Shown one piece after another: positions 6,457-31,387 of a DNA stretch of 64,000 bases; within the stretch, counting starts at the first letter, position 1, and every line of letters begins with the position of its first letter. The DNA is taken from contig NMRA01000217.1 of assembly GCA_002633005.1 (NCBI GenBank), positions 372,001-436,000 on the forward strand, given 5' to 3'. This DNA comes from Phoronis australis (lineage: Eukaryota; Animalia; Phoronida). The notes beneath the pieces are model-generated. The model saw only the letters and a program-made list of their open reading frames with translations. It was not told where the DNA came from and made no database searches. Made by a program: the position numbers and the translations under genes.

Positions 6457-7211
6457 AAATGGTAACAGCCCACTCAGTACTCTAAAGGCATTACTCCGAA
6501 GGTTCACTACTTTGAAGGTTCACTACCCCAATAATGGTATGAAATTGCGGACTGAAGTGTAATTTTTATACTTTCACACGAAAAATACGCATTTCCGCTT
6601 AGAAGCAGTGGCGTAGTACCCAGTAGTAATGCGGATACTGAGAACAACGCCGGGTATTAATAAACGTTAACTGTTTGGGGTTTCTTGGCTATGCGCCAGT
6701 GCGGGGCTCCAAAAGCCAAGGCCTGAAATGAAATACCTTCGTGCCCCTGATGTTGTCCTTAATTGTTTTAAAAATGAGTAGTTTTACATTCAAGAATTAC
6801 GATCTGAATGATTGGAACTGAGCTCATTTGCTAAAAAAAGCAATCAATAATTTAACCACTATTAATTTTTGTTATCCCTTTAAATAGTTACTAAATGAAC
6901 ACAAATAGAATAAACTGTCGAACTCAGTTGTGAGCATGGTTTGCAATAGTGAACCTTGGGAGTAGTGTTACGTAATTGTGGGAATCTCTTTCATCAAGTT
7001 TGTTGACCATATGAAGCCTGCAATGCTTTGCATCATTTTCAATAATTTACAAGAGAAGACGTTTCTTCCTTGACAATATTTAGTAGGTCTAATCATATTT
7101 TTATCGAATAATGTGAACATGCTCGTCGGAAGGATTTTATCAGCTTGTGCAAGAAAACAGTAGCGAAATGTCTGTTTTTTAAGAAACGGACTGCCTATTA
7201 AGTTACGTGTG

Positions 7212-8126
7212 CTAAAGGATTAGCAGTTGTTATAATGGACAAGCAGAAATATATTGACGAGGCTCTCCGACAACTTAATGACACAGCATACTACAAACTT
7301 TTAGGTAATAACCCCAACACAAAACATATCAGCCTTATAACTAAAACTATTTTGAATGCTTTCCATTTAGGTCACATTGACAAAGACACCAAAAACTACC
7401 TCATTCCTAATGCTCAACCTAGACGCTTTTATCTCCTTCCAAAAGTCCACAAAGAAGGTAATCCTGGGCGCCCAATTATAGTCAGCAACAACTGCCCTAT
7501 GGAAAAAATTTCTCAGTTTGCCGACTACCTTCTTCAGCAATTTGTCCCCACCCCGGCTTCCTTCATATGTTAAAGAGGCGAACCATTTTCTTAATATAAT
7601 TAAAAACATCAGTGATTTACCTAAAAATGCCCTTCTCGTAACTCTTGATGCTAAAAGCTTATACACTAATATTCCTCAACATGAAGGCATAGAAGCCTGT
7701 ACCAAGTTTCTGAGTCAACGTAATAACCCTAATGTACCTACATCTCATATTCGCTCTCTTCTTGAACATGTACTTACCATGAATCATTTTACCTTTAATA
7801 ATAATCACTATCTCCAAATATTAGGCACAGCTATGGGAACTAGGGTTGCTTCTACTTTTGCCAACCTTTTTATGGGAAATCTTGAAAACAGATTCATCAA
7901 ATCCTGCTCTGAAAAACCCCTTCTCTGGCTAAGATACATTGATGACATTTTTATGATATGGCCGACCCATGGTCCACAAAAATTAGAAGTATTTTTAGAA
8001 AATATTAACAAATTTTACCCTACTATAAAGTTCACTCATGACATTTCTCAAAATAAAGTCTCATTTTTAGATGTAACTGTCACTCTTAATAATGATAAAC
8101 TAGAAAATGACTTATTCTATATTTAA
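7212..8126 (+). mobile_element. Penelope-like retroelement reverse transcriptase fragment (frameshifted, truncated)
   Basis: Overlapping ORFs 7235-7573 and 7518-8126 give PLE RT motifs KGLAVVIMD, FYLLPKVHK..PGRPII, LVTLDAKSLYTNIP, GTAMG....FANLFM, WLRYIDDIF, IKFT, FLDV; one frameshift near 7550; stops before any GIY-YIG domain. Confidence 0.92.
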
Positions 8127-8749: not shown

Positions 8750-11700
8750 ATGGGCCCCAAGTTTGATCCAACTGCTATTACTATCGGTAAGTCCAATATT
8801 GTACCTTTAATATGCAAGGATATCGGCTAGGCCTCAAAAGCCCGGTCAGCTGGCGAATGAATGATTGAATCCGACGAGTAGCCGAACACAGAGCCAGGTC
8901 GCTCTCTTCTTTTAAATATTGTTATTTCCAGTACTCAAAAGGTCCCGTTTAACGTTGGGCACTGGTCGGATATAACGGTCCCTGATTTCATGTGATGGCT
9001 TGGATAGTGACCACTGGCATAGCTGGCATGTTGAGCAACACGTAGGCAAATACATGGCGATGGTACATCCCCATAAAAAGTTACGCATTTCAAAATACAG
9101 CAAATAAAATCTAATGAAACATGCATAAATGCACATGGAGTTATAATTAACACATACCATGACTCTGAATACAATAATAGTCAACATAACTTGAACATAT
9201 CCATGAAAGCTGTCGGCGGTTCGCTTAAGTTTCTCTCGCCGGGTGCCATTTCAAGAAAGTTACGAGAAATCATGCCTGTTAATGAACAAAAATTCCAAGG
9301 GACACAAAACTCACAAATTCCACCTGATAATCTTCCCATGCTATTTTGCAGGTGTTACGCGCCAGGTCACTCGCTTTGCTCAGTCTCGCGCTAGCTTTAG
9401 CCTAACTCACGTGACTCGGTTGATATATTTTGTGGTTATCGCGACCAAAAAGTGGAGTTGGAATTCTTCTCCCAAGTCTGCTTAATTCTAGTAGAAATGC
9501 TTCATCGAAGATATGTGTAGGATATGTGTTAAGAGTTACTAATGCTTATTGCTTTAATTAAGGGATTTGTCACTGAACCTTGTCCTTTGTTTGTGGCAGT
9601 TTTGTGTAGCATTTCTTCTCTACTTGCAGTTTACCTGCGTGCTGTAGGCGGTGAAGTGGGTGCTACTTCATCCCTTGCCCCCAAGATTGGTCCCCTTGGT
9701 CTGGTAAGTTATCAGAATAGGCCATGATTAATGTAGAACATTGTTTTATTAAAATTGTCTCTGAAACCAGGCTTGAACAGCAGTGGGGATTATTTACATT
9801 CCAATCTAGCAACAAAGTTCGTGCTCCAAATTAGTCATCCAAAAGCAGTTTTTAGTTCTTGATTTTGACTGCCACCTTGTCCCACGTTACGGACTTTTAA
9901 AGGAAACACAGGTAATAGCCATGTATTTGCAACACTCTCCTGCTTTTTCAACAATGAAAGAATTTGTTCATCAACTTTAGGATGCAACGATTGTGATGTG
10001 CGGTTACGGGGGGGGGAGATGATTTCCAATAAATCGACCATCACCTCAATGCTGTGTGTTTTAGGGAGCATAGATACATGTAAGCACCAAAAATTCCTTG
10101 AACTCTTGCCGGTGAGGTACACAAACTCAACTTGAGCAGGTTCATGTTTTGGTGCTCAAAGGGTGTTTTAAATATATAGAAGGGTCTGGTGGCTAATGTA
10201 ATTACGTGGTGCCCAAGTCGTAGTGTAGTTTGTTGTTTTTCCATTACTAGGCATATATTCGGTCATTATTTCAAGTGCGACTACAGTTTTTGTTGAATTC
10301 CTGAAACATGCGATTTAATTCATTGATGCATGCAATTCATTGACGTATGCGTGTAACTGAATTGAGTAGCGATTACGGTGTGTAGATTAAATCTGTTTAT
10401 TGCACTCTCCCATAGTCCCCCAAGAAGGTGGGTGATGACATTGCCAAGGCAACGCAAGACTGGAAGGGCCTCAAAATCACGGTGCAGCTGACCATTCAGA
10501 ACCGTCAGGCCAAGGTTACCGTGGTGCCCACAGCCTCGTCCCTGATCATCCGCGCTCTCAAGGAGCCGCCACGTGATCGCAAAAAAGTGAAGCATGTCAA
10601 ACACAGCGGCAATGTGGCCTTCGATGAGATCGTCAACATTGCGCGCACCATGAGGGAGCGTAGTATGGCTAAAGAGCTGAGCGGTACCGTTAAAGAGATT
10701 CTCGGTAAGTTTTGTCGGGTCTCTTTTTATTATGCGCCCACACATATATATGTGGGCGCATTAGGCTGGCATCCCCGTCTGTCCGGCATCCGCTGCTATA
10801 TCTCCAAAACCCTTGGATTTATGCCCATGAAATTTTGTAGATGTGTTTCATGAATTTGATGGCATGAGCGAATTTTCGGACAGTTGCGACTACTGGTGTG
10901 CCCCTTACTGGCAATATTAGGTTTATGCACCCAAATATTTACATATGTGCATATTGCCGTCACCTCTGTCTGTGCGAGTGTCCGCAGCTCTAGCTCCTAA
11001 ACCTGTCACAGAATCTTGATGAGATTTGGCAGCTGGCAATGGATGACAACGAATTTCGGACTGATCCGACTACCGGTGTGCCCCCTAGGGGCAATTTTAG
11101 TTTTTGCGTTTACCTCTGTTTCATGAAACTTGGCTCGTAGGCATCTGTTAATAAGATGATGCTACCCTTCTGTGCTCGGATGGATTCAAGGTATTTTGCA
11201 CCCGTGGTGGCTATTTTTACTGTTTTTCAGTCAGTTTATCGGCGTCTGCCCTTCTATCGAACAACCCGCTCTAAGGATGGTCATGAAAATTGGCACACAT
11301 GTTCTTACTGTGAAGAGAGTGGCTAAGAATGATTTTCCGGCAACTTTGATTACTGTGGTGCCTCCTAATGGCCGTTTCGTTTTATTTTGGGCCTGTGGCA
11401 GTATCTTTATTAAACTTTGTAAGTATATTTGTTTGATGTTGAAAACGGACAACAAGGACTTTCAGATGGATCTGACTACTAGTGTGCCCCCTAGTGGCAA
11501 CTTTAATTTTAAGGTCCTCAACGGATTTTCATATAATTTGGCAGATAGGATTTATTAGTAAGATGACGATTTGCTTCTGTTTTCGGATGGATTCAAGGTA
11601 TTTTGGGCCACCTAGTGGCCATTTTTACTTTTTTGAGTCTGTTTTTTGGCATCCGCCCCTCTGTCAAGTAAACCACTCTAAGAATGATTGGCCTACTGTG

Positions 11701-14448: not shown

Positions 14449-17124
14449 AGATCAAGTCTTCGAATTTGATCATTTTTAACTAAAATGGTTGAAAATAAAG
14501 GTATAAAAATGGAAAGTTCCGATTGTTTTTCCTTAAGTGCCAATGCCATCTATTCATCTTGTCTTTTACATGCACACAAATATGGTCGGAGTTGTTCCAG
14601 TCATATTTATAATTGGACCAAATACCAGTCGTGAATCAATGATTGACTAGGGTTGAATCTGACGGGGTAGACATTGGGCCAGTTTAGATTTCTCCTGAAC
14701 AGGATGATCTCTGAGCCGCTGGATCTATTACAGAATTTACTTGAAATTTGGGTTCAGATGTTAAAAGAAATCTTTCTTCATCTTGTGGATGTCAAGTCCT
14801 CAAAGTAGCAAGTGTTACACAGCTGAAAGGCCACGTTGCATTCAAACTTGTTCTTTGAAAATGGAAGGTGCATGTGAATATGTACACAGATAGAACCCTT
14901 GGACTTTGGTATACTACAGATTTCTCTTTAAAAATGTTTGGAATCATTTTGGGAGGTATTCCAACTACTTATACAGGCATGCACACACACACGAGCAATG
15001 TTCACATAGTCACTTTGCTGATTTCATGTCCTGCACTAGGAGATTCGCATCTTCCAATGTTCAAGCATTTTGTGCAAGCAATTTTGCAAAGAATATTGGT
15101 ACTTATTGTAAGCAGTTAAACCACTTTAAACCCTTTTTTTGTCATAACAAATCTCATCTTGTAACCGACTGTATATCTTTCGGGACATCCGTGGAACACT
15201 AAAAAGAAGGTATGCAATACATGTTTCTCAGTGTGAACGAAAAAACCAGTGACTTCAAACTCGTATAAAGTTCAACCTATATATTGAACACAAGGGTTTT
15301 ACAGAAACATCGACGATGGTTGCGTTCTAGTAGGTGACAACTTCCAGGTATATTGAATAACGGTCTGGCTTGTGACAACCTGGCGTACACGATGACTCAT
15401 CTGACATCCAATTGTCAAAGTGTATGTTAAAAGTGGTAGATTATTCGAACCGCGAATGCCACTTCGGAATGAGACGTGCAATAAGTAATTAAAACCATGA
15501 TTTTTATACAACAATCTAAGATGACCAAAAATTTGTAATTTAACCAAAACAGTTACTCTCCCCTCTAAGGAACACTGAGCGCCCAGTTGTGTTTGCTGTT
15601 AGGGCAGCGGACGGATGTGTCAATGACGTCACACCTCATGACGTAATAGATTTAGACCCGTTAGAGAGGCACCTCGATGCTTTCGTGGCACGTTTTGCGC
15701 TCATCGCAACGGATTGAGAACCGAAACAAAAGAGGGATTACTCTGCTGAATAAGAGCAAAAGGTTGATTATTTCGCGTGCGCCAAGTGTCGTCGTGGTAT
15801 ATTGTATTCATTCATCAAAAACAAATGTTGCGTATATTCCGTTACAAAAGGGGATATTCACCCAACTCATCAACAGATGCCGCGTAATGTCTAACCCAGG
15901 TACCGACGGTACTAAACTAATAGTATTAATAGTAAGATGTGACCACCTAAAGTAGATCATAAAACTGATATTGTTTAAACATGTATTAATGACAAAGTAA
16001 ATTCGAATACACTACAAAAAATCATCAACGTTTCTGTGGTCACAAATTCAACTTTGAACCTGAGTTTAGGTTATAAACTGCGCTGACTGTTACTTAAAGA
16101 ACTGATAACGTTTCTTCACCCTTCACAAATTTGAGCAAGCTCTGTTGATCGGTTGCTTACAGACCAACCTGCTTTCTAGGAAGTTCTACTGGAATTTGAA
16201 CGTATCTGCGATAATAATTTTCATAGAAGCGAGTGCAAAATTAAAAGCATGCACGTCCCAGGGGCGTGCAAATTGGAAGAAGCTCCAATGCCCAGCTGTT
16301 GGTTAGATTAAAACCTCGCAGCAGCATTTTAATAGATGAAATATGGTTCTGCTAGTCACATTCATGCATTTCTTCTGCTGAAGCTGGTCTACAGGTTGTA
16401 CTTGAAACTCGCACTTTTTTCCAGTCCCGAAGAAATATCGGTGGCGTAATTTTTTTAATCGAGTGGGTTATCTGCAACTAGTAATCTGATTTGTTTGTGC
16501 AATGGAACGCTTTTGTTTATTTGTTCTGTACCTTTACTCATCAGCCTAAAATCAGAGAAACGCTTGAATTGCCCATTCATTTTATTTAAGCAAACTCACT
16601 GGTTAAAATTCAGCTCACAGCAGAAAAGTGGTGGCTGTGGGAAATATATGTATGTGCAGCGTACTTATACTATCTAAAAAACAACAACAAAAAAAAAAAC
16701 GAAAAGCGCTCAGCACGGAGGTAGTTATATTAGTCCATTAGATTCTACTTATTCATCATATTCGGCGGCAATGCAGCATATTTCACGGCTCAGTTGTTTT
16801 GCGAAGTGGTCAAGTCGAAAGAAACACTTTTCCATGCACTGAAATTTATTCATATTTGCCAAGTGATATAAGCTAGCATTCACATCTAAGTGGAGTTTCG
16901 TCCACGGCAATAAAGAAAGGCAAGCAGAGCTTTGGTACTCCCACCGCTATAATAATTATATAATTTGTAATTTCAAAGGTCATTAACACATGTAAAATGA
17001 TAAAGTCGTTTCCAAGTGTAGTTACTGACACTTCTAGTAGCTAAAAGCTGGAGCATAAAATGTTGCACCCTGGGAAAAGTAATCATCTGTGGCGGAAAAG
17101 CATCTTTTTACGAACTGCGCCGAA

Positions 17125-20100
17125 CTAGCCGCAAGTTTGGCACCGACACGTGGGGCAGCCGTTGTTGTCGTAGATCCTGCCACATGGACATAGGTTCTTG
17201 CACAGGGGAGGACACTTCGGACAACGTTTGCATTTGCAGATGGGACAGCCGTCAACCACCACGTTTCCACACGGACAGTAAATCTGGCAGAGTACGGGAG
17301 AGCACTTTTTGGCTAAAATATACGGGAATGCCCATAAGCATACATGAAAAATTTAGTTTAACTATGCTATAAAACATACCAGAAACAACTTTGTGATTTA
17401 AACCATGCCGTTATAAAACTGGTCTCAGTTTGCTCCTTGGGCTACTCTGATGAGAAGTGATGCTTAGGCTTGGGAAGCACTGCTAGGTTTTATTGCCAGA
17501 GACCTTGTAGGCTCGGACGACTAGTTGATTTGTAACAGTGCCGCGGCTCATCTCATGTGCCGACCACGGTCCCGAGCAATGACACACTACCAGGTCTCAG
17601 TTTTTACCATAAATCTCGATATCATCTGCCGGAGTATAAAGGACAAGTTACGAACAAGTTGGTGGGAATTATTTGGACTGCACGAGCATGCTTTAAATTT
17701 AGTGGAGACAGTCTCAAGTGGCTCAGTGGTTTGAGCTCCGGACTCCGGTTTGGGAGACCAGGGTTCGACTATCCTGGTTTTTAGTGGCTGACAAACGAGC
17801 ATTGCACAAAGGTGTCTCTGAGCTCGGTCTTACCAGTGAATGTATGCAAGAGAATGAATGAGAACCTGGATATAATGCAAACGCTTTTCCTGGAGTTGTA
17901 CTTAAAAATCATGCTTTCAGTGGTAAGATTAAGTACAACGCTGAGTATAATTGTTCAAACTTATAGGTAGGCCTACTTTACTTTTAAACAGAGGCGCGGA
18001 CGTGATCCGACTTACCGCAAACACATTCTCTCCTGCGGGCAAAGAACCAGACAGTCCTCCTGCGGCGGCACCACCAGAATCTGCACCATCGTCTGCAACT
18101 ACCGTGGGCAAGAAAAACTACGGAGCGCGTCTGACATCTTCCTTTCTGTGGAACGTCGCACGCAGCGCTGGAAAACGGCGAAAGCAGAACAACAAGTGAA
18201 AGAGATCTCACAACGTGAAGTTCAGGAGCAACTTAATGCTGATAAACTAAAACGTCTATAAACACAATTTATATGAGAGACTGAACTGGCAAATACAAAA
18301 ACTATATTATACAGTGTTAATACTGGCGAAACTTGAATATGACGTTCGTGTGGCATTAAAGATGGGTTTCGGGCATTTCAGATGGTGCACGATGATTGGT
18401 TCTCGTACATGTATTTACGAACCATTAATGGGTCCAAAAGCCCTTATATCTTCGGTCGCACAACCGGTGGCATCTTTAGGAAACGTCTGCCATCCGAGTC
18501 ATTCATGACGAACTATCTCAGCCTACTCGAGTGTAAGGAAAATTGACACTCGACGTCCTCTTCGTGTTTTCCCTCGGCTTCGTTTGATACTTAACCACGA
18601 ATCTTACAGAGCACTGGTAACATGACCATTGGCACATTTTTTTTCAATTTTTCTGAATTAAAATTCAACTCAAAACTGTACCTACATGAAATTATCGAGT
18701 ACTTACTTTTCCTTACGACAAACTGTGTTCTTCACAGGCGTGGTGTAATACACTCCGTTGTAAGATCTTGAATAAAAAGTCCTCACTTCGCATGGGTTGG
18801 GATTTGGTGGCGCTGTTGTTGGTGGCCGCGTTGTTATTGATGGCGTTGTTGTTGATGGCGGCGCCGTTGTTTCATTTCCCACTTCCTTTCTCTCTTCCAA
18901 GCTTATGTCTTCGTCTGTGGCTGCCAACTCATCATCAAACGTCTCTTCAAAGTTTCTCTCATCGAAAATATCAAACCCATCTTCAACGTCATCTTTCACG
19001 TCATGTGCAAGCGCCTGCAGGGACAGGCAGAGCAGGAGTACGCCGAGGACAGTCTGTAAGTATAAGAATAGCGGTTCGTTGCCAAGCTACGCTCAATTAT
19101 CTGATAACTCGGAACATATAGGAACACCAAAGCATGGAAAGCTAAATTAAATAAGTAATTTTTTCACTAAATCAGTGAACCGGCATATTTTCACAATTTT
19201 CTGTTTGGAATTAATTTGGCTATACGTTAGGTATTCATGTATCAAAGTCCCTAGGCCTGTCGACCCCCTGTATTCATTTGCACAAAAACTAAACGATATG
19301 CAGTACATGTAGAAATCCGCAACAAAAGTTTTGATTGAGGTAAAGTAATTTTTAATATTACTGGTTTAATGTACATGTAGGCCTACAAATTACATGTACG
19401 ACACTCAATAAGGTAGATCCTTGCAACAATTAAAAATTCTTGAAATTAATTAGCTTTAACTGTTAATAAATAATTTAGTGACTTGTGGAAATTAGACTTC
19501 CATTACAAAGCCAAAACAAACGAACGAAATCTAAAATGAAACGCGGAGAAATCAAATGTGAAACTGTTTAATTGAAGATTACAGTATGTTTAACCATTCA
19601 ACTGTTGACAAGACAGTGTTTTCTGGCATCATTACTTTGCAAGGGCAAATCAAAGCGGTTTACATTTCCACACGCCCTTGGCACAATGAACAACCAAACA
19701 CAGGGCTTTTTAAAACGAAGGCCAATGATTAAACACAAATTAACAATAGCGCACTTTATTTTAAATGAGTGCAAAAACTTAATATCAGCAGAATATCTAT
19801 TTGCGAGAGATAAAAGAAATAAATATTTACAAACTCTTTGATCTTGGTCGCTTAACACAATGGGTTGGTGTAAAATACTTATACGTTTCACACATACCGA
19901 ACTTGTTATTATAGACATGGGAAGTCATGATCGACCGTGATCTTGCCGTTACATTGTACGAGACACACTTCAATAAGAAACAACACATCCAACACTCATT
20001 TCTTTTTACGCCGTTGTATGTCAGCAAAAAGGTTAATATATCATAATAACCGTTTTTTTTGAACTGAGTTCCCAAAATTCACCCAGTTACCTGGACCCTC

Positions 20101-21385
20101 AATTAATTGCAACTGTCAAGTTTAATACAATAATGCTTTTATGCTGGTGCGCATAGACTTTTAAAAACTTTCCTTCCTTTACTCACGGTTTATAATACAG
20201 GAGGAATTTCGTAGGTGGAAAGGTATGATCCCTAAAATATAGATTTCGTAATTTTCAGCTCTGTTGGAATTTGTCTCGTTTTACCATCAGTTTTTAATTT
20301 AAACAATGGCGAGGCCATGTGAGACACTACAAGATTACGATTTACATTAAAGTATGCATCTTACATGTTGAGACTACCTAAAACCATTGAACTAGTGATA
20401 CTTGGTATTACGCATGCTTGCCGGAGAATTTTAATTGGTTACGAAACGCCCTTCATATGCCAGAAGAAAACCTTACCATTACAAAAGTGTTTGAAGCCAT
20501 GCACCAGCCGCGCGAAATGACCACTGTTTCCAGAGACAGCGAGCGATACGATCAGTCCTCACACGGGACTACTTCTAATTTGAACAAAAAACAAGTTGAG
20601 ACCGGTTTTACAAGAACAGCTGACCTAATTTATTCAAATCTAGTTCTTGTGGCGGAACAAGTAGAACACATTTAAATAAGATTTTGTTAAAAGGATACCA
20701 AACCCGGTTTTAACATATACTAAAAACAACTTTCCAATACAGTTCTCTGAAACAAAATAATGCTCAGTTACCCTCGACAACACTCCAAAGTTTGGAGGAA
20801 AACATGAAAATTCCTTTCAAAGTCTGCTATAAGGGCAAGCGTAACCTACACTTTAGCTAACCCGGCAACTGTGGGAAATAAAAACCGGCCAAGGACCACA
20901 CGGTCCAATATATCACATAAGAAGAATGAGTTTTTAGTTAATTCCTGTCTTTAACTTGGAAAATTGACACCAATGATGCATTAGCAGGTGGCAGAATGGG
21001 GATTGGTAGAAATCGTCAAAACGGGGCTCAGTATCCTTTTAATAATAAAAAAACTTGTTGTGTTAAAAAGGGGAACGTCCTTTTAATGAGCTGAAATACG
21101 ACACGTTTTTCCACCATTTAAGACATTTGTCACATTGATGGAATGCAACAGTATCATAAACTAGCAGACGGTTTTTAATATCAACTCATTCAGTCATAAA
21201 TTTAAATGCTTAAAACGTGTTTTACATTATGATCTCTCCTTATAATGTCTTTGTCATGTTTATATATAAACATTACAAAGACACATCATAAACCAAAATC
21301 CATGTCAGTCACGTTTCAGGTAATACATGTATCTTATTTGACCTTTTTTCGGTTATGTGATCCTTCTCACTAGTAAGCCGCCCAT
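17125..21385 (-). CDS. Secreted cysteine-rich protein, 233 aa: signal peptide, acidic pro-region, Thr/Pro linker, Spaetzle/neurotrophin-like cystine knot, two antistasin-like repeats
   Basis: Four GT-AG exons in consistent phase: 21385-21371 (MGGLL), 19053-18707 (TVLGVLLLCLSLQALA...DDVEDGFDIFDE...CEVRTFY...VCRKE), 18167-18016 (NAACDVPQKGRCQTRS...RECVC), 17312-17125 (AKKCSPVLCQIYCPCG..DGCPICKC...GCPTCRCQTCG*); 702 nt with no internal stop. Confidence 0.85.
17715..17890 (+). mobile_element. tRNA-derived SINE (family also at 31660-31810)
   Basis: A-box TGGCTCAGTGG (17719-17729), B-box-like GGTTCGACTATCC (~17762); body CGAGCATTGCACAAAGGTGTCTC...GTATGCAAG...TAATGCAAA matches the reverse complement of 31660-31810. 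Confidence 0.7.
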
Positions 21386-21806
21386 AGGCTACAGGCTCGT
21401 CTTGTCTGTATTTGCCAGAACTACATGTACCAATGGGCTTGGTCTCTGGGGCCATTTTCAAGTTTGAGTCAAAAAGCCATCTGTCAATTGGTCGTCACTT
21501 CGTCGATTATACTCCCACTGACACGGCAAAACACATCGCCTTCTTATTTGGTGTGGCAAAACATAGACGTGGCACATTTCCCTTAGATGGAAATGTGACC
21601 TTTGACCGTTGACGTAAACAAAATAATATGGCAATTCCAAGCAGCAGCTCTCACTGGCACTCTTTCACGGCTCTACGAAAGGTAGGGCCACTTTTAGATG
21701 ACGCCTGTGTCAGAGAGTCTCGCTTGTTCCCTGCGTGTCCGAACACGCAGCCATCATTCAGTAGCACGCGTTTTATCACTGGTTGATGTAACCTCGGCAG
21801 CCATTG

Positions 21807-22587
21807 TGTCAGAATATAGTCTGACAGTATTTTTAGTTGTATTGTTTTGTTTTGTTATTCTGTTTGATTGGCATGACCCGGCCCTGAGTTAAGTACCATG
21901 ATGATGTAATTTGTTTACTACAGAATAGTATGGAACTTTCTAGAAGACTGAGGTCAGAACAGTGATGATGTAATTTGTTTACTGTAGTATAGTGTGGAAC
22001 TTTCTAGAAGACTCTAGCATGACAGTGATTAATGCAGTCTGGAATAATCTAGAGACTAGTACGTTGTTTGTAGAATGATTGGGTAGGTTCCAGAAAGTTC
22101 TGGTATGTGCTTGAATTGAAGAACAATGCATTAGGCTATAAATACACAAGCACGGGTTTGTGTTAGTCTGTTGAGTCCAAGAAGGTCAAGACCGGAGATC
22201 AAGACAGTTCACAAGAAGATCACGTCAGTTAATCAAGAGAAGATCAAGTCAGTTCAAGACAGTTACAGTTGAGTTGCAGCCAAGAGAATCAGCAGTTACA
22301 GCGATAGTCAATAGAGAGCCAGCTACAGAGACAGCAGGTTATTGAATCGAGTGTAACAGTTGCTGGACTGTATCTCAGAAGTTCAATACAAGTCAAGGCT
22401 TCGCAGCACTGGCTGGAGCATAAACAGACATTACGTCGGACGTTTTGTTTGAGTAGGCTTGTGAACGTACGGTCGGGATTAATAAAGGATTAACTCGAAC
22501 CAGTCTTCGGTCAATCTTCGCACCGAAAGCTATTAGCACCGGTCTGTAACAACCTGCGCCCACCCACACACGGGGAAAAACGTGACA
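21807..22587 (+). mobile_element. Solo LTR (781 bp) with 5-bp target-site duplication
   Basis: Begins TGTCA, ends TGACA, flanked on both sides by CATTG (21802-21806, 22588-22592); internal ~64-bp direct repeat (21899-22012), TATAAATA (~22137), AATAAA (~22481). Confidence 0.85.
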
Positions 22588-25831: not shown

Positions 25832-26152
25832 CTGCACCTCGTAGTCATCAAGCTCTTGTGGAAGAGTGCACAACTTCTGCGAATTTGGCGAGATCAAGCA
25901 AGACCACACAAAATTACGCGAGTGAAAGGAGGTGTTTAAAGGGCACGGTCCGACCTTAATTGCGAAAATTAGCAATCTGGAACCATTGGAATACTTATGA
26001 GATAGGCGATTTTTCACCGCAACCGCATGTCTCTCCACTGAGTGTCTTGCGTTTACGGCGCCCCTGGATGTATGTAGTTTCTGTTAATATTAACCACTGA
26101 GCCAGTTAGAGTCACTGGAGATATACCACCACTTCGCCACCGTTTTGTAGCA

Positions 26153-29100
26153 ATGATCGTTGCTCATTGTTTAGTTTGGTGGAGCGTGGTGTGTATGGCA
26201 ACTATAATTTCGCCATCCAACGCCAAGCTGAACTCTAGCGATACCGCTGTCAAAATGGAAATGGCTCAATATCGCACGAAGGAAATTGCAAGAATCATAG
26301 AGAAGGAAACAACGATAGTTCGACGTGCTTTTGAATCAACATGGGACTCCCGCGTGATCAAAGGCCTTTTAAAGACAGCATCATTGATTTCCCAATTTTT
26401 CGACGTTGTTGATGTTTTTTCCTTTTTTGTCGACATTATTGATTTGTTTGAGAACACTCAAGGTCACATTCTGGAAGAGATTGAAAAACTGAGCAAAAGC
26501 ATAGACTTTTTGAGCGACCAGCTTGACCAAATGCAACAAGAATTGAAAAATGCTTTTGTTTACAATGAATTATTGTCCGATTTCAATGATGTTACGAACG
26601 CAGTTGAAAACAGTGACAAGAAACTGAGACAAGTACTGCAGTATTTAGCGACCGTGAAAAGTGAAAGGAAAGTTTGGAAATTAGCAGAAGAGTACGTGAA
26701 CCGTTACGATGGGAATAACATCGATTTGCATATTGACAATTTGATATTGATGACTACACAACAAGAAACAGAAACACGGAACAACATTTTTGACAGGTAA
26801 GATATTTCAAATTGGACACCTAAAGGAATCGGAACAAAGAAGGCCATTTCGTGTAAACGGCCTCTGTACAAGCTCTGGTACAGCTGGAAACTTAGTAAGT
26901 AGGAATTCTGTTAAAATACAAAACGACTAAGGTCTTCGTGAAGCTGTAAAACCGACTCGGGCTTTCGTAAAAAATCGCAAAATGCTGCCGTTAGCATTGC
27001 GCCACTAGTGCGGACAGTGTCGTAGGCCACACATGACATGTACATGTAAGCTCATAGCAGAATCTCAGTTTGATAAAATCAGAAGCTTAGAACGACAGTC
27101 CCATCGAAGTCTTGATAAACAAAAGCCACATGTTGCAAGTAGTTTATCCCGTTCAATCAGGCATCTTTTTGATCACATCACGTGACCTAATGAATATAAG
27201 TCCAAAAAGATTTCTGCCCCCGACTACGACAGCCACATGCTACATAAAGTCATACCCAACAGACGCCTTGGCAGGCTTGGAGTCACATAATAATGACCCA
27301 GATTCTAAACCAGGGTCATATTATTCACTTCTGCAATAAATAAATTAGCCTACCCTGAACTTCACTGGCACACAGAACGGAAAAAAAAAACATTGAACAA
27401 ATTAAATACCACGCACTTGCGGTAGCTTGATCACACTAGGGTACACAGAACGGAAATAAGATTGAATAAAAACATTTAAACGCATTTATCTTATGTCAGT
27501 ATTGTCATCCCTCGGTGCACAGAACAGATGGAAGACTGAATAGATTACAATACTGTGCACTTAAGTGTACGGATGACCCTGGAAAAATTTACAAATTTGG
27601 CTAACTTCGAAAAATTTCTCACAAAGGGCAGCCTGATTCACACGAAACTTTCAAATATTTTGCTTTATGTAATATTCTCCAGAATGGGCTAGGAATTGTA
27701 TATCAAAACTTGGAACTGTTATGGTATTCATGAAAGAACTCGAGTTGCATCAGAGGTATACGAAATAGTTTAGAAAACTGTAACAGTGTTTTTGAGATTT
27801 TATCTTTAACATTAATATTTCATATGTAAAACGAAAATCCTTAATATTATTGATGTCATTGTTTTGCACTTTCATTTTTTATAAATTTCAATGAAAGACA
27901 TGGTCGCGTGACCCAATTAATGGAGAATTGGTAAAAAGTCTACTTTCAGAAAAAATGCAGTTTTACTAAACTAAAATCTACAAGTTTGGAGATATTTGGA
28001 TAAATACCGGTACATAAACTTCTCGATAACGTCCTACATAATCGGTTATAAACACGACTTACTTCATCAATCTATCTAATTTTGACAGGCTCTTACGTAC
28101 TGTTAAGAAATTAGTCTCGAACTGTTCCTTAGTCAAATTAGGTGTGATTTGTGGGTTTTGAAAGAACTGACAAATCCCTATTATTGCGTCAGGCCAGATT
28201 CTACAAGATGAGTTGTCACGGCATGTCGCGGCATTGTTCGCCAAGTATAGTGTAAAGCAATAACGAACTGCCAGTTTATTGCAAGATCAAAAAAATCTCT
28301 GCTCACCTGTGTGAGGGCTAAGGAATAAACTGACACCAATTTTACTGGTCTGAATCAAAAATCAGCTTGTGAATGAATGTCTGGGACGTGTTGCCTCATG
28401 ACATAAGCTTTCCGTACCTAACTTATCACAGTGGACACCCTCTCTCAAGCAACTAGAAAACTGGGCTACGCTCCGTAAATCTAAGGCAACCGCGAGAAAA
28501 GTTAATGGTAGTCACGTGCTTCTGTTGTAATGCAAGGTGATATCTCGCGAAGCTTCAAATAACCTTGAATTTTCGCGTACCTGATTGTAACTGTTAATGT
28601 ATTTCAGATTTATTGTAGAAAAGGGTTGCGACGTCAAGAAACTGGCAATAATTATGCTGCAAGTGAAGCGAGTGGTGGCGCTCGCTGCCCGACAAGTTAT
28701 GGCGTACCATGTCTTTAAAGGAGACGGCGACAGGGGTGCTAGGAGGTCCACAGACATGAAGAGAGCCATGTACAAAATTCGCCGCGTGTTTCAGTGGAAA
28801 GTATGGCAGTGCATGGGATATACACGTGAGCTTGCTCAAGCTGACGTCGTAAAGATCTTAAAGTCGATGAGAAACTTCCCTGACGAAACAGTTGTTGACG
28901 CAGTCTTCGGCGAGTTAGCTGAGAGGTAAGGTGACTCGATCAACGATCCCAGTCCCATTTCATTTTGTTAAAAACTTAAAACGCCCTAAACGTTAAGAGA
29001 ATAGGAGGTAGTGTGGCCTAGCGGAATAGCTCTTCGCATCCGTTGCTGAAGGTCGTGGGTTCAAATCCTAGCCGGTGCAGCACACTGCTAGTCTTGAGTC

Positions 29101-31387
29101 AAGCTCTGGCTCCTCAGCTAGGTTCACCATATAGCCTTGATAAAACTTAAAAATCATTTTGCTGGGGATGGAGATGGGCAAGAGGGACGGGTGGGGCGGG
29201 GGGTTGGAAGATGAGAGACGTGTGGGGTTACCAATGATGTATGGGAGGAGGAAGAGAGATGTGAAACATTTCTGTTCAATTGTCCATAATGAAACTTACA
29301 GATATCCATGGTATTCCTGGGCAGTAGCGTCGATTGACAAACACCAACGACGTCGTAAAGAGTGGAAAGGCCAAACTTACTTCACTGCGGAAGACGGAGA
29401 CAAAAGGACGCTTCTCGTTGTGTACTATGGAGAAGAATCATTTGCGAGTTGTTTCGACTTACCAAAGGCCGAGACCTTGGTAAACTTTAGAATATGTGCT
29501 GACTGCGAATGGGTTAAATACATGAACGCTTCTGAAGAGAAATTCCTTACCAAACAAAGGTGTAGCTATTTAACACCAGACTCCACAGACAGGTTCAAGG
29601 ACTTCATAGCAGCTGGAACACAAACAAGTGTCGACTCATGTAAAGTTGGGAAGAAATGCAGTGGCAACGGAGTATGTAATTCTGTTCCTCACTCAAAGAC
29701 TATTCTGTGTATATGCAACGACTTTGTTGAAGGGGAATCGTGCGATATTACCGTCAATCCGGATGATTCAGAGAAAATTGTGGAGCTGATTGCAAGTTTG
29801 AGAGAAGACGTCAATCGTGCTTTTAAAGTACCAACGACAGTCGACACATACTTTCAAATTCTCAATCTTTCGGCTAAGATTGACTCCTTGAAGCGAGACC
29901 TGATTTCTGTAATGACAAATTGGGAAGTGATAAAAGATGCTGATCTTGTCGTTGGGTTCTATATTAAAATGAAGAAAGGAAATGTAGATTTTGATACATT
30001 CGGGCACACAATTCAAAAGCACTTATTGACAATATCGGAACTTAAATTGACGACAAGTCTATATAACGGGATTCTCGCCAAAGGTCTTCTAGGCTCACCT
30101 GGTAACGATTTCTATAATATTTTTAAAAAGCAATGGTTTGATAAGAATCCACAAAGCCTTTGTACTGAGGAATACAACACCGCGGTTTCGCGGTTGATGC
30201 GGAATTTAGCCACGCTTGATCAAAATTTGGGCGAAGCTTTGATCATGTACAGGGAATGGCTTAGAAAAACGCAAGCGAAAACACAACAAGAGCGCGATCA
30301 ATTCTTTGAGGAAGCAGATAACCTAAAGACAGAATTTGAATCACGGCAACGTCACTATCAAGATTACTGGACGAAACACAGCTGTGGAGATTTGAAGCTA
30401 AGCGAACTAAGTAACGGAAAGGTCTGTAAAGACCAGCTGAGTTACGAAGGGATGACTGTCTCGGTGGCTTGCGGTCATCAGCGTGTGCCAGAGTATATTG
30501 CTTATGAATGCAAAAATAAAGGAAACGTTTTGAACTGGGTTCCAAAAGGGAAATGTTTTTATCGGTGGGGGGCGTGGGGAAGTTGGAGCCGGTGCTCAAG
30601 GTCTTGCGGTGGTGGTATTCAGATGCGTAGGAGAGCATGTAAAGGCACGACCAACGTTGAAGACTGCAAAAAGGACAACAACAACACGCCCGCACTAGAA
30701 CAGCGACGATGCAAAACCATTGACTGTTGCACTGCTAAGAAAATGTTCAAGTGTCCCTCGGGCAAATGTATACCTCTTAGATATGTGTGCGACGACGATA
30801 ATGACTGCGGTGACAATGCTGACGAAAACAACTTGTCATGTCCCGGTGCATTGCGGTCTGGTGATGTCGTTGCTTTGAGAAATCATAAAACAGGCAAGTG
30901 GTTTGGATGTTGGCACTGGCAGTGTGCACTGACCAGTTGTAACGTTTACGGAAAACCATGGAATAAATGCAGAGGAGAAAAATTTCGGTTTATAAGTTTG
31001 TCTCGAAGGGAAGGGTCCATTCTCCGGCATGGTGACGAAGTCGGCGTCCAGTACAATCTTCATCACGACAATTGGCTAAGTTGTTGGAATCTCGAATGTG
31101 GGCGCTCCACTTGTCCTGGCTATTCTGTACCTACTTCTAGCTGCAATGGAGAGCGATTCCAAATATTCTCTTCCGCGCGAAAAGGCAAGTGTAAAGACGG
31201 CGAGGTTAGCTGTCGTGGAGATTATATCAGAAAGAATGATTACGTATCCATTCGCTATACCCATAAAGAGAAGTGGGTTGGGCCAAACAGACATGGGGAA
31301 ATTTTACGGATGAGTTATGGGCATACTTTTGGTTTTTTCGGATACTATTACCGTTCATTACCGCGTTGGCAAATTGTGACACGCTAA
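26153..31387 (+). CDS. SE-cephalotoxin-like secreted protein, 1015 aa (signal peptide, coiled-coil N-terminus, EGF, helical region, Sushi/CCP-like, TSP1, LDLa, C-terminal three-repeat domain)
   Basis: Exons 26153-26796, 28608-28925, 29302-31387 (both introns phase 2, GT-AG; 3048 nt). EGF CSGNGVC...[12 protein letters not shown] (~29640-29745), TSP1 [25 protein letters not shown] (~30566), LDLa [27 protein letters not shown] (~30745-30830); domain order and size match my recollection of Sepia esculenta cephalotoxin. Confidence 0.88.
27365..27560 (+). repeat. Degenerate tandem repeat, about 3 units of ~75 bp
   Basis: Recurrent CACAGAAC(GGAAA)...(A/C)TTGAA at ~27370, ~27444 and ~27518 in intron 1 of the cephalotoxin-like gene. 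Confidence 0.5.
29007..29120 (+). mobile_element. tRNA-derived SINE head in intron 2 of the cephalotoxin-like gene
   Basis: A-box TGGCCTAGCGG (29014-29024), B-box GGTTCAAATCC (29058-29068); no convincing cloverleaf. Confidence 0.6.

What the first reader, a model, noticed from the sequence alone, without database searches (positions are those of the whole stretch)
17125..21385. Apparently undescribed secreted pro-protein: Spaetzle-like cystine knot fused to antistasin repeats
Seen: a four-exon gene the ORF track shows only in fragments. It encodes signal peptide MGGLLTVLGVLLLCLSLQALA, a very acidic segment ending in EERK, a Thr/Pro stalk, then C-EVRT...VCRKENAACD...RCQTRS..FLA...ECVC and two antistasin-like units. 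Established: the Drosophila Spaetzle C-106 knot has the comparable layout C...EECEGADQPCD...ICKQHY...LA...CKC and is released from a pro-domain to activate Toll; antistasin domains inhibit serine proteases. Inference: a protease-activated cytokine-like ligand carrying its own protease-inhibitor modules, an architecture I do not recognise.
Basis: partly seen in the sequence, partly recalled or inferred. Interest (0 to 1): 0.85.

Follow-up and report, generated by a model that had tools for sequence, protein, structure and literature searches.

The report
Noggin-like knot fused to antistasin repeats
A spliced, expressed gene, most likely of a horseshoe worm, encodes a likely secreted protein that joins a predicted growth-factor-type cystine knot, spaced like noggin rather than Spaetzle, to two antistasin protease-inhibitor-type repeats; far more abundant sister transcripts suggest a family that likely acts as a bulk defence secretion rather than as a Toll signal.

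Summary
The gene is real. The 236-aa product has a signal-like N-terminus, an acidic segment, a Thr/Pro stalk, a basic 79-aa Cys-rich domain and two repeats that each pass Pfam's Antistasin cut-off. The host is most likely a phoronid. The putative knot's Cys gaps (23/6/7/36/1) nearly equal human noggin's (22/5/7/35/1; 18 of 20,000 random placements fit as well). Spaetzle's Trp-loop and dimer Cys are missing. The fold itself is untested: the knot spans two exons and could not be folded whole. No homologue of the knot exon was found among 1.84 billion proteins. Paralogous transcripts, 17-83 times more abundant, keep the last knot strand, CxC and the Lys reactive-site candidate but change the hairpin tip. 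Best reading: a co-opted noggin/trunk-type scaffold secreted as a masked cationic effector with a trypsin-type inhibitor module. Earlier scan notes describe orphan knot genes in other animals, none with antistasin repeats. New architecture of known modules; interest 0.5.

The parts
20477..20550 (-). True exon 1 (5' UTR plus first 8 codons, ATG at 20500, MASNTFVM); the 5' end may lie a little further upstream
   Evidence: Joint 19053^20477 in 4 of 4 runs, CT..AC; X1 contig covers 20477-20550; donor GTAAGG
18707..19053 (-). Exon 2: rest of signal peptide, acidic segment, RK site, Thr/Pro stalk, first part of the putative knot (C96, C120)
18016..18167 (-). Exon 3: second part of the putative knot (C127, C135, C172-x-C174) with extra C148, C152, C157
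17125..17312 (-). Exon 4 coding part: two antistasin-type repeats and the stop codon
16839..17124 (-). 3' UTR, with AATAAA at 16845-16850
   Evidence: X1 contig ends at 16839; AATAAA on the - strand
19006..19053 (-). Hydrophobic core and A-L-A end of the likely signal peptide (residues 9-24; residues 1-8 are in exon 1)
   Evidence: Kyte-Doolittle above 1.5 for windows centred on residues 9-20; no SignalP run
18886..19005 (-). Acidic segment (residues 25-60, net -14) ending in R63-K64, a candidate pro-peptide and cleavage site
   Evidence: the cleavage is inferred
18793..18873 (-). Thr/Pro stalk (residues 69-95), after an N-E-T sequon at N68
18017..18792 (-). Putative cystine knot C96-C174 (79 aa, net +14), split by intron 18168-18706; Cys gaps 23/6/7/36/1
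   Evidence: fold inferred from spacing, not modelled whole
18056..18097 (-). Arg/Trp-rich hairpin tip (C148-R161) with three extra Cys and an R-R-R-R furin-type motif; replaced by a shorter tip without C152 and C157 in the paralogs
   Evidence: loose ends behind 18051, hand-translated
17221..17304 (-). Antistasin-type repeat 1 (C178-C205, 8 Cys); P1 candidate Gln184
   Evidence: Pfam PF02822 E=3.7e-4, 21.4 bits
17131..17214 (-). Antistasin-type repeat 2 (C208-C235, 8 Cys); P1 candidate Lys213, kept in the paralogs
   Evidence: Pfam PF02822 E=1.7e-5, 25.6 bits; aligns to the Lys of bdellastasin's C-K-V-K-C (E=0.14)
21371..21385 (-).
   Evidence: zero depth in bin 21284-21467 in 4 of 4 runs

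Best explanation
This spliced, transcribed gene encodes a likely secreted 236-aa precursor whose basic core is predicted from Cys spacing to be a noggin/trunk-type cystine knot fused to two antistasin repeats, and which likely serves, with its more abundant paralogs, as a bulk extracellular defence protein rather than a Toll ligand. Proposed working: (1) shown: four exons are spliced into one mRNA; (2) inferred: the signal peptide sends the protein into the secretory path; (3) inferred: the acidic segment (net -14) masks the basic knot (net +14) in storage and is cut off at R63-K64; (4) inferred: the knot (C96-C135, C120-C172, C127-C174) is a protease-stable scaffold that displays a variable Arg/Trp-rich hairpin tip, which would bind anionic surfaces such as microbial membranes or sulphated mucus; (5) inferred: repeat 2, with Lys213 at P1, would inhibit trypsin-like proteases and protect the protein or the secretion, while repeat 1 (Gln or Glu at P1) is probably a spacer or aims at another enzyme.
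For: Splicing, strand and expression in 3 of 3 raw RNA runs. Charge split. Cys gaps 23/6/7/36/1 against noggin's 22/5/7/35/1 (C155-C192, C178-C228, C184-C230 in PMC9929448): summed difference 3, reached by 18 of 20,000 random placements, against 27 for BMP-2. Strand propensity falls as two hairpins with a non-strand stretch between C120 and C135, as in growth-factor knots (crude scale). Both repeats pass the Pfam cut-off. At position 17206 paralogous reads are 186 of 197, 578 of 585 and 422 of 445 in X2, X3, X4, roughly 100-340 reads per kb per million by hand estimate, a level more usual for bulk secretions than for cytokines (general knowledge). The paralogs keep the strand W-F-F-A-R-R-R-E-C and CxC (hand translation), all 13 Cys in residues 183-230 and Lys213; 17 of 26 listed differences are silent, while the hairpin tip differs. 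Arg or Lys at P1 marks trypsin-type antistasin inhibitors (PMC6265900). A small secreted antistasin-bearing protein in limpet mucus was read as defensive (PMC7333891).
Against: The fold was not shown. Pfam has no cystine-knot family hit on either knot exon even at E 10. The spacing test is post hoc: I chose the segment ends and came to noggin after recalling several families, so its effective probability is nearer 1 in 100. The cationic Trp-rich tip is specific to this copy; the abundant paralogs have a shorter tip, so a membrane-binding role may not hold for the family. This copy itself is modestly expressed (11, 7 and 23 reads at 17206). The paralogs are seen only from the last knot strand onward. 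Tissue of expression is unknown. Antistasin-like repeats also occur in a structural leech cocoon protein (PMC7851590) and in a CRIM1-like protein, so inhibition is not implied by the Pfam hit.
Confidence: 0.4

Rival explanations
1. A noggin-like or trunk-like signalling protein: the knot binds BMPs or a Torso-type receptor kinase, the acidic segment is a pro-domain, and the antistasin repeats tune its processing or tether it, as such repeats accompany BMP regulation in CRIM1 (recalled).
For: Noggin-type Cys gaps. Clip-less noggin-like proteins exist and can inhibit BMP or activate RTK signalling (PMC9071555). Trunk is reported from cnidarians to amphioxus (PMC11087794). One of 2 hits for the repeat exon is a Mytilus CRIM1-like protein.
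Against: No clip: no proline in residues 25-72. Noggins are conserved across animals, yet exon 3 found 0 relatives among 1.84 billion proteins and no noggin chain among PDB sequences at E 10. High paralog expression and a variable tip.
Confidence: 0.22
2. A structural component of the secreted tube or adhesive mucus: the knot and repeats are disulfide-stabilised building blocks that cross-link through the odd ninth Cys and through cationic-aromatic contacts once the acidic segment is removed.
For: Abundant paralogs; 25 Cys after the signal peptide, an odd number; the leech cocoon protein is built of antistasin-like repeats (PMC7851590). An unchecked scan note gives this reading for a mussel knot gene with an acidic pro-region (e1-9279196).
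Against: Conserved Lys at the P1 position of repeat 2; only two repeats; the extra tip Cys are not kept in the paralogs.
Confidence: 0.18
3. One reading: a Spaetzle-like pro-cytokine that is cut by a serine protease, activates a Toll receptor, and carries its own inhibitor modules to limit the cascade.
For: Signal peptide, likely unstructured pro-region and a knot-like layout with a 6-residue II-III gap (Spaetzle also has 6, recalled). Phoronis australis has 24 TLRs (PMC8609888). Unchecked scan notes report Spaetzle-shaped proteins in mussel and oyster.
Against: Finger 1 is 23 residues without Trp, while Spz1C's Trp-loop alone spans His18-Gln40; there is no Cys before knot Cys V to match the central dimer bond (Cys-94, PMC9427763; its place next to Cys V is recalled); no PF16077 hit on the separate exons. 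No Spaetzle ortholog was found in the nemertean Lineus ruber, and spiralian TLRs are thought to be activated directly (PMC9835746). The candidate cut lies 31 residues before the knot, not at its edge.
Confidence: 0.1
4. Residues 96-174 are not a growth-factor knot but another disulfide-rich beta fold, and the noggin-like spacing is chance.
For: No profile or structure match for either half. A loose knot pattern is met by 2,802 of 200,000 shuffles (1.4%).
Against: The close noggin fit and the kept CxC and last strand in the paralogs.
Confidence: 0.1

Closest known systems
Noggin / noggin-like / Trunk / PTTH branch of cystine-knot growth factors (human noggin; Pfam Noggin, accession PF05806 recalled)
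   Same: Cys gaps of the knot within one residue at each step (23/6/7/36/1 against 22/5/7/35/1); extra Cys in finger 2 where noggin has its fourth intrachain bond (four bonds per PMC9929448; position recalled); secreted; basic patch.
   Different: No clip; acidic segment and Thr/Pro stalk in place of noggin's N-terminal half; two antistasin repeats after the knot; no sequence-search hit; several paralogs with a variable tip and high expression.
Spaetzle / Drosophila neurotrophins (PF16077; Aedes Spz1C, Drosophila Spz C-106)
   Same: Signal peptide, likely disordered pro-region, knot-type Cys order with final CxC; DNT1 also has a C-terminal tail after the knot (PMC2586362).
   Different: Shorter knot, no Trp-loop, no central dimer Cys, no Pfam hit on the halves, antistasin tail.
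Antistasin family (PF02822; bdellastasin, hirustasin, Hydra antistasin)
   Same: Both repeats pass the curated cut-off; Lys213 aligns with the Lys of bdellastasin's C-K-V-K-C (E=0.14).
   Different: Six-Cys core as in Hydra-type repeats plus two extra Cys (C-P-C-G and a trailing C-x-x-C), not the ten-Cys leech domain; Gln at P1 of repeat 1; fused to a putative knot.
Gordionus repeat protein P0004 and Mytilus CRIM1-like P0005
   Same: Same repeat type (63% and 47% identity to exon 4).
   Different: Neither shows the eight-Cys form or a knot-like domain before the repeats.

Membership tests
Spaetzle (PF16077) | Profile match to the Spaetzle domain | tested here: inconclusive
   No hit at E 10 for exon 2, its last 31 aa, or exon 3; the domain is split by an intron and could not be scanned whole
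Spaetzle (PF16077) | Long finger 1 carrying the Trp-loop | tested here: not met
   23 residues and no Trp between C96 and C120; the Spz1C Trp-loop alone spans His18-Gln40 (PMC9427763)
Spaetzle (PF16077) | Central inter-chain Cys for the covalent dimer | tested here: not met
   E171 precedes C172, also in the paralogs; Cys-94 is conserved in Spz1C and DmSpz; its position beside knot Cys V is recalled
Spaetzle (PF16077) | Pro-domain removed by a protease at the knot boundary | tested here: inconclusive
   Candidate R63-K64 lies 31 residues before C96, with a Thr/Pro stalk between; cleavage not shown
Spaetzle (PF16077) | Binds and activates a Toll receptor | not testable with these tools
   needs binding and reporter assays
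Noggin / noggin-like / Trunk | Knot Cys spacing 22/5/7/35/1 | tested here: met
   23/6/7/36/1; summed difference 3; 18 of 20,000 random placements reach it (noggin numbers from PMC9929448); post hoc choice of family and segment
Noggin / noggin-like / Trunk | Cystine-knot fold with I-IV, II-V, III-VI disulfides | not testable with these tools
   The spliced domain could not be folded whole; exon 3 alone gave pLDDT 58 and no clear match; the complex queue was full
Noggin (canonical) | N-terminal clip with Pro35, Leu46, Glu48 | tested here: not met
   No proline in residues 25-72; clip residues from PMC9071555. Noggin-like proteins and Trunk also lack it
Noggin / noggin-like / Trunk | Profile or sequence match to the family | tested here: inconclusive
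   No Pfam or PDB-sequence hit on the separate halves at E 10
Noggin / noggin-like / Trunk | BMP antagonism or Torso-type RTK activation | not testable with these tools
   needs animal-cap or cell assays
TGF-beta/BMP-type eight-membered-ring knots | Three residues between knot Cys II and III and a long III-IV stretch | tested here: not met
   Best six-of-nine fit to BMP-2 gaps 28/3/31/31/1 differs by 27
Antistasin (PF02822) | Six-Cys repeat above the Pfam gathering score | tested here: met
   21.4 and 25.6 bits against 21.2; 30.2 bits together
Antistasin (leech inhibitors) | Ten-Cys domain with the N-terminal subdomain | tested here: not met
   Eight Cys per repeat: six-Cys core plus two; ten-Cys pattern from PMC6265900
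Antistasin (trypsin-type inhibitors) | Arg or Lys at P1 | tested here: inconclusive
   Repeat 2 has Lys213, kept in the paralogs; repeat 1 has Gln184 (Glu in one paralog form); P1 placed by alignment to bdellastasin (E=0.14) and recall
Antistasin (PF02822) | Inhibits serine proteases | not testable with these tools
   needs enzyme assays

The most novel reading that the evidence does not exclude
Horseshoe worms have built a gene family in which a noggin/trunk-type growth-factor knot with a swappable finger tip is released from an acidic pro-peptide and carries its own trypsin-type inhibitor: a self-limiting, protease-gated ligand family that would supply endogenous ligands for the expanded phoronid Toll-like receptors or for a Torso-type kinase, in an animal group where no Spaetzle is known.
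Probability: 0.15. Interest if true: 0.8.

Novelty: new variant of a known kind. Interest (0 to 1): 0.5.

Why it matters
Both modules are known, but I found no protein or paper that joins them. If the knot is confirmed, it shows a developmental-signalling scaffold of the noggin/trunk branch recruited, duplicated and diversified in a little-studied phylum, invisible to Pfam and to sequence search. That would add to the evidence that lophotrochozoans hold many uncatalogued cystine-knot proteins. It also gives a small, expressible candidate for three simple tests: protease inhibition, antimicrobial activity and BMP/RTK/TLR signalling. If it is only a secretion protein, it still bears on how phoronids protect their tube and body surface.

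Full report
Gene structure. The window is animal DNA with introns. I laid four public runs under the same species label on 16500-22000 (about 18-19% of each of three raw RNA-seq runs, and one whole contig set). All four show the joints 17312^18016, 18167^18707 and 19053^20477 with GT..AG ends, and one 1,080-nt contig chains the four exons. In the three raw runs, first mates lie on the + strand over the exons, which fits a minus-strand mRNA. The real first coding exon is 20500-20477 (MASNTFVM). Joining 20500-20477, 19053-18707, 18167-18016 and 17312-17125 gives one open frame of 236 codons. The 3' UTR runs to about 16839, next to an AATAAA at 16845-16850.

Host. The RPL12 exon at 10416-10703 is 94% identical to Phoronis muelleri and at most 86% to any other of the 120 best hits listed, of 2,270. 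The host is most likely a phoronid.

Anatomy. Residues 1-24 look like a signal peptide: hydrophobic core 9-20, ending A-L-A; no SignalP was run. Residues 25-60 are acidic (net -14) and are followed by R63-K64. An N-glycosylation sequon (N68) and a Thr/Pro stalk (69-95) follow. Residues 96-174 are basic (net +14) with nine Cys. Residues 178-205 and 208-235 are two eight-Cys repeats.

The repeats. Each passes Pfam's Antistasin cut-off alone (21.4 and 25.6 bits against 21.2). They are the short six-Cys form, as in Hydra antistasin (PMC7851590, passages), not the ten-Cys leech domain (PMC6265900, passages), and each has two extra Cys. In the weak match to bdellastasin (E=0.14), C-K-N-L-C of repeat 2 lines up with C-K-V-K-C, so Lys213 is the P1 candidate; Arg or Lys there marks trypsin-type inhibitors. 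Repeat 1 has Gln. The only database hits for this exon are a Gordionus repeat protein and a Mytilus CRIM1-like protein (2 of 11 candidates); neither shows a knot-like domain before the repeats.

The putative knot. Taking C96, C120, C127, C135, C172 and C174 as knot Cys I-VI gives gaps of 23/6/7/36/1. Human noggin's knot is C155-C192, C178-C228, C184-C230 (PMC9929448, passages), gaps 22/5/7/35/1. The summed difference is 3; 18 of 20,000 random placements of the seven inner Cys do as well, and BMP-2 differs by 27. This test is post hoc: the segment ends were chosen by me, and the noggin lead came from recall after considering several families. A looser knot pattern is met by 1.4% of shuffles. 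A crude strand scale gives two hairpins with a non-strand stretch between C120 and C135, the layout of growth-factor knots (PMC11087794, sections 7 and 10; PMC4079206, passages). Spaetzle fits worse: its Trp-loop alone is as long as this whole finger 1, and its central dimer Cys has no counterpart (PMC9427763, passages). Canonical noggin's clip is absent, as it is in noggin-like proteins (PMC9071555, passages and supplement text). Against the knot: no Pfam, PDB-sequence, Atlas or fold match for either half. These tests were weak because an intron splits the domain and only the halves could be submitted. The fold remains inferred; I put it at about 0.75 that the domain is a noggin/trunk-type knot.

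A gene family. Laying the same runs at 80% likeness showed other transcripts that match the end of exon 3 and exon 4 with 31 other letters between; that joint is seen in 4 of 4 runs, from two studies. At position 17206 they make up 186 of 197, 578 of 585 and 422 of 445 reads, 17-83 times this gene's own. Loose ends show at least two or three forms. By hand translation they keep W-F-F-A-R-R-R-E-C and the C-x-C, have a slightly longer linker, and replace the tip with a shorter one lacking C152 and C157. Of 26 listed differences 17 are silent; all 13 Cys in residues 183-230 and Lys213 are kept (the table shows only the best-supported rows, 109 more were not shown). Their upstream part and genomic loci were not seen, and none lies in this window.

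How it likely works. An acidic N-terminal piece balancing a basic, Trp/Arg-rich, disulfide-rich core is the usual plan of stored antimicrobial and surface-active precursors (general knowledge). Several copies, a variable exposed tip, high transcript levels and a kept Lys at P1 point the same way. I therefore favour a secreted defence effector built on a co-opted knot (0.40), over a noggin-like or trunk-like signal (0.22), a tube or mucus building block (0.18), a Spaetzle-type Toll ligand (0.10) and a non-knot fold (0.10). The effector and structural readings were prompted in part by an unchecked note on a mussel gene (e1-9279196). For the Toll reading, P. australis has 24 TLRs (PMC8609888, passages), but no Spaetzle ortholog was found in a nemertean (PMC9835746, passages). 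No function was tested.

Novelty. Exon 3 has no relative at E<=0.001 among 1.84 billion representatives (a 50-aa query has limited reach). The paper searches listed under Tried and rejected showed no knot-antistasin fusion, but noggin with antistasin was not searched and most subscription papers are not held. The scan's notes list six cystine-knot findings in other genomes for the words used, none holding all of them, one noggin/trunk-like orphan pair in Trichoplax, and no look-alike by sequence. Other papers seen as passages only: PMC2586362, PMC6672746 (nothing relevant), PMC7333891, PMC11768458, PMC6670124 (nothing relevant). Verdict: a real gene, a corrected first exon, a new combination of known modules in an apparently lineage-restricted family, with fold and function unproven. 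Interest 0.5.

Noticed in passing
window 10416-10703 (+): Exon of ribosomal protein L12 (uL11); best hit Phoronis muelleri at 94%, used to place the host.
   Followed up: yes
window 26078-26797 and 29144-31384 (+): Two long ORFs (240 and 747 aa), probably exons of one large secreted protein; the second has TSP1 and LDL-receptor class A hits. The layout recalls SE-cephalotoxin-like proteins (recalled label, not tested).
   Followed up: partly
window 7202-8123 (+): Reverse-transcriptase fragment in two overlapping frames (RVT_1, E=6e-12), likely a decayed LINE-type element.
   Followed up: partly
window 17700-17900, 20700-21050, 21500-22000: Reads pile up on both strands with many differences and loose ends: dispersed repeats in introns 3 and upstream of the gene, not exons.
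   Followed up: no
window 18837, 18860, 18995, 19020, 17193: Replacement differences between the window and runs X1/X4 (I81V, P73R, K28T, L20V, L215V) fall in the signal, acidic and stalk parts and at P2' of repeat 2; the X1 contig has none in exon 3.
   Followed up: partly
window 18056-18067 (-): R158-R161 forms a furin-type motif inside the hairpin tip; it could nick finger 2 in this copy, but the paralogs lack it.
   Followed up: no
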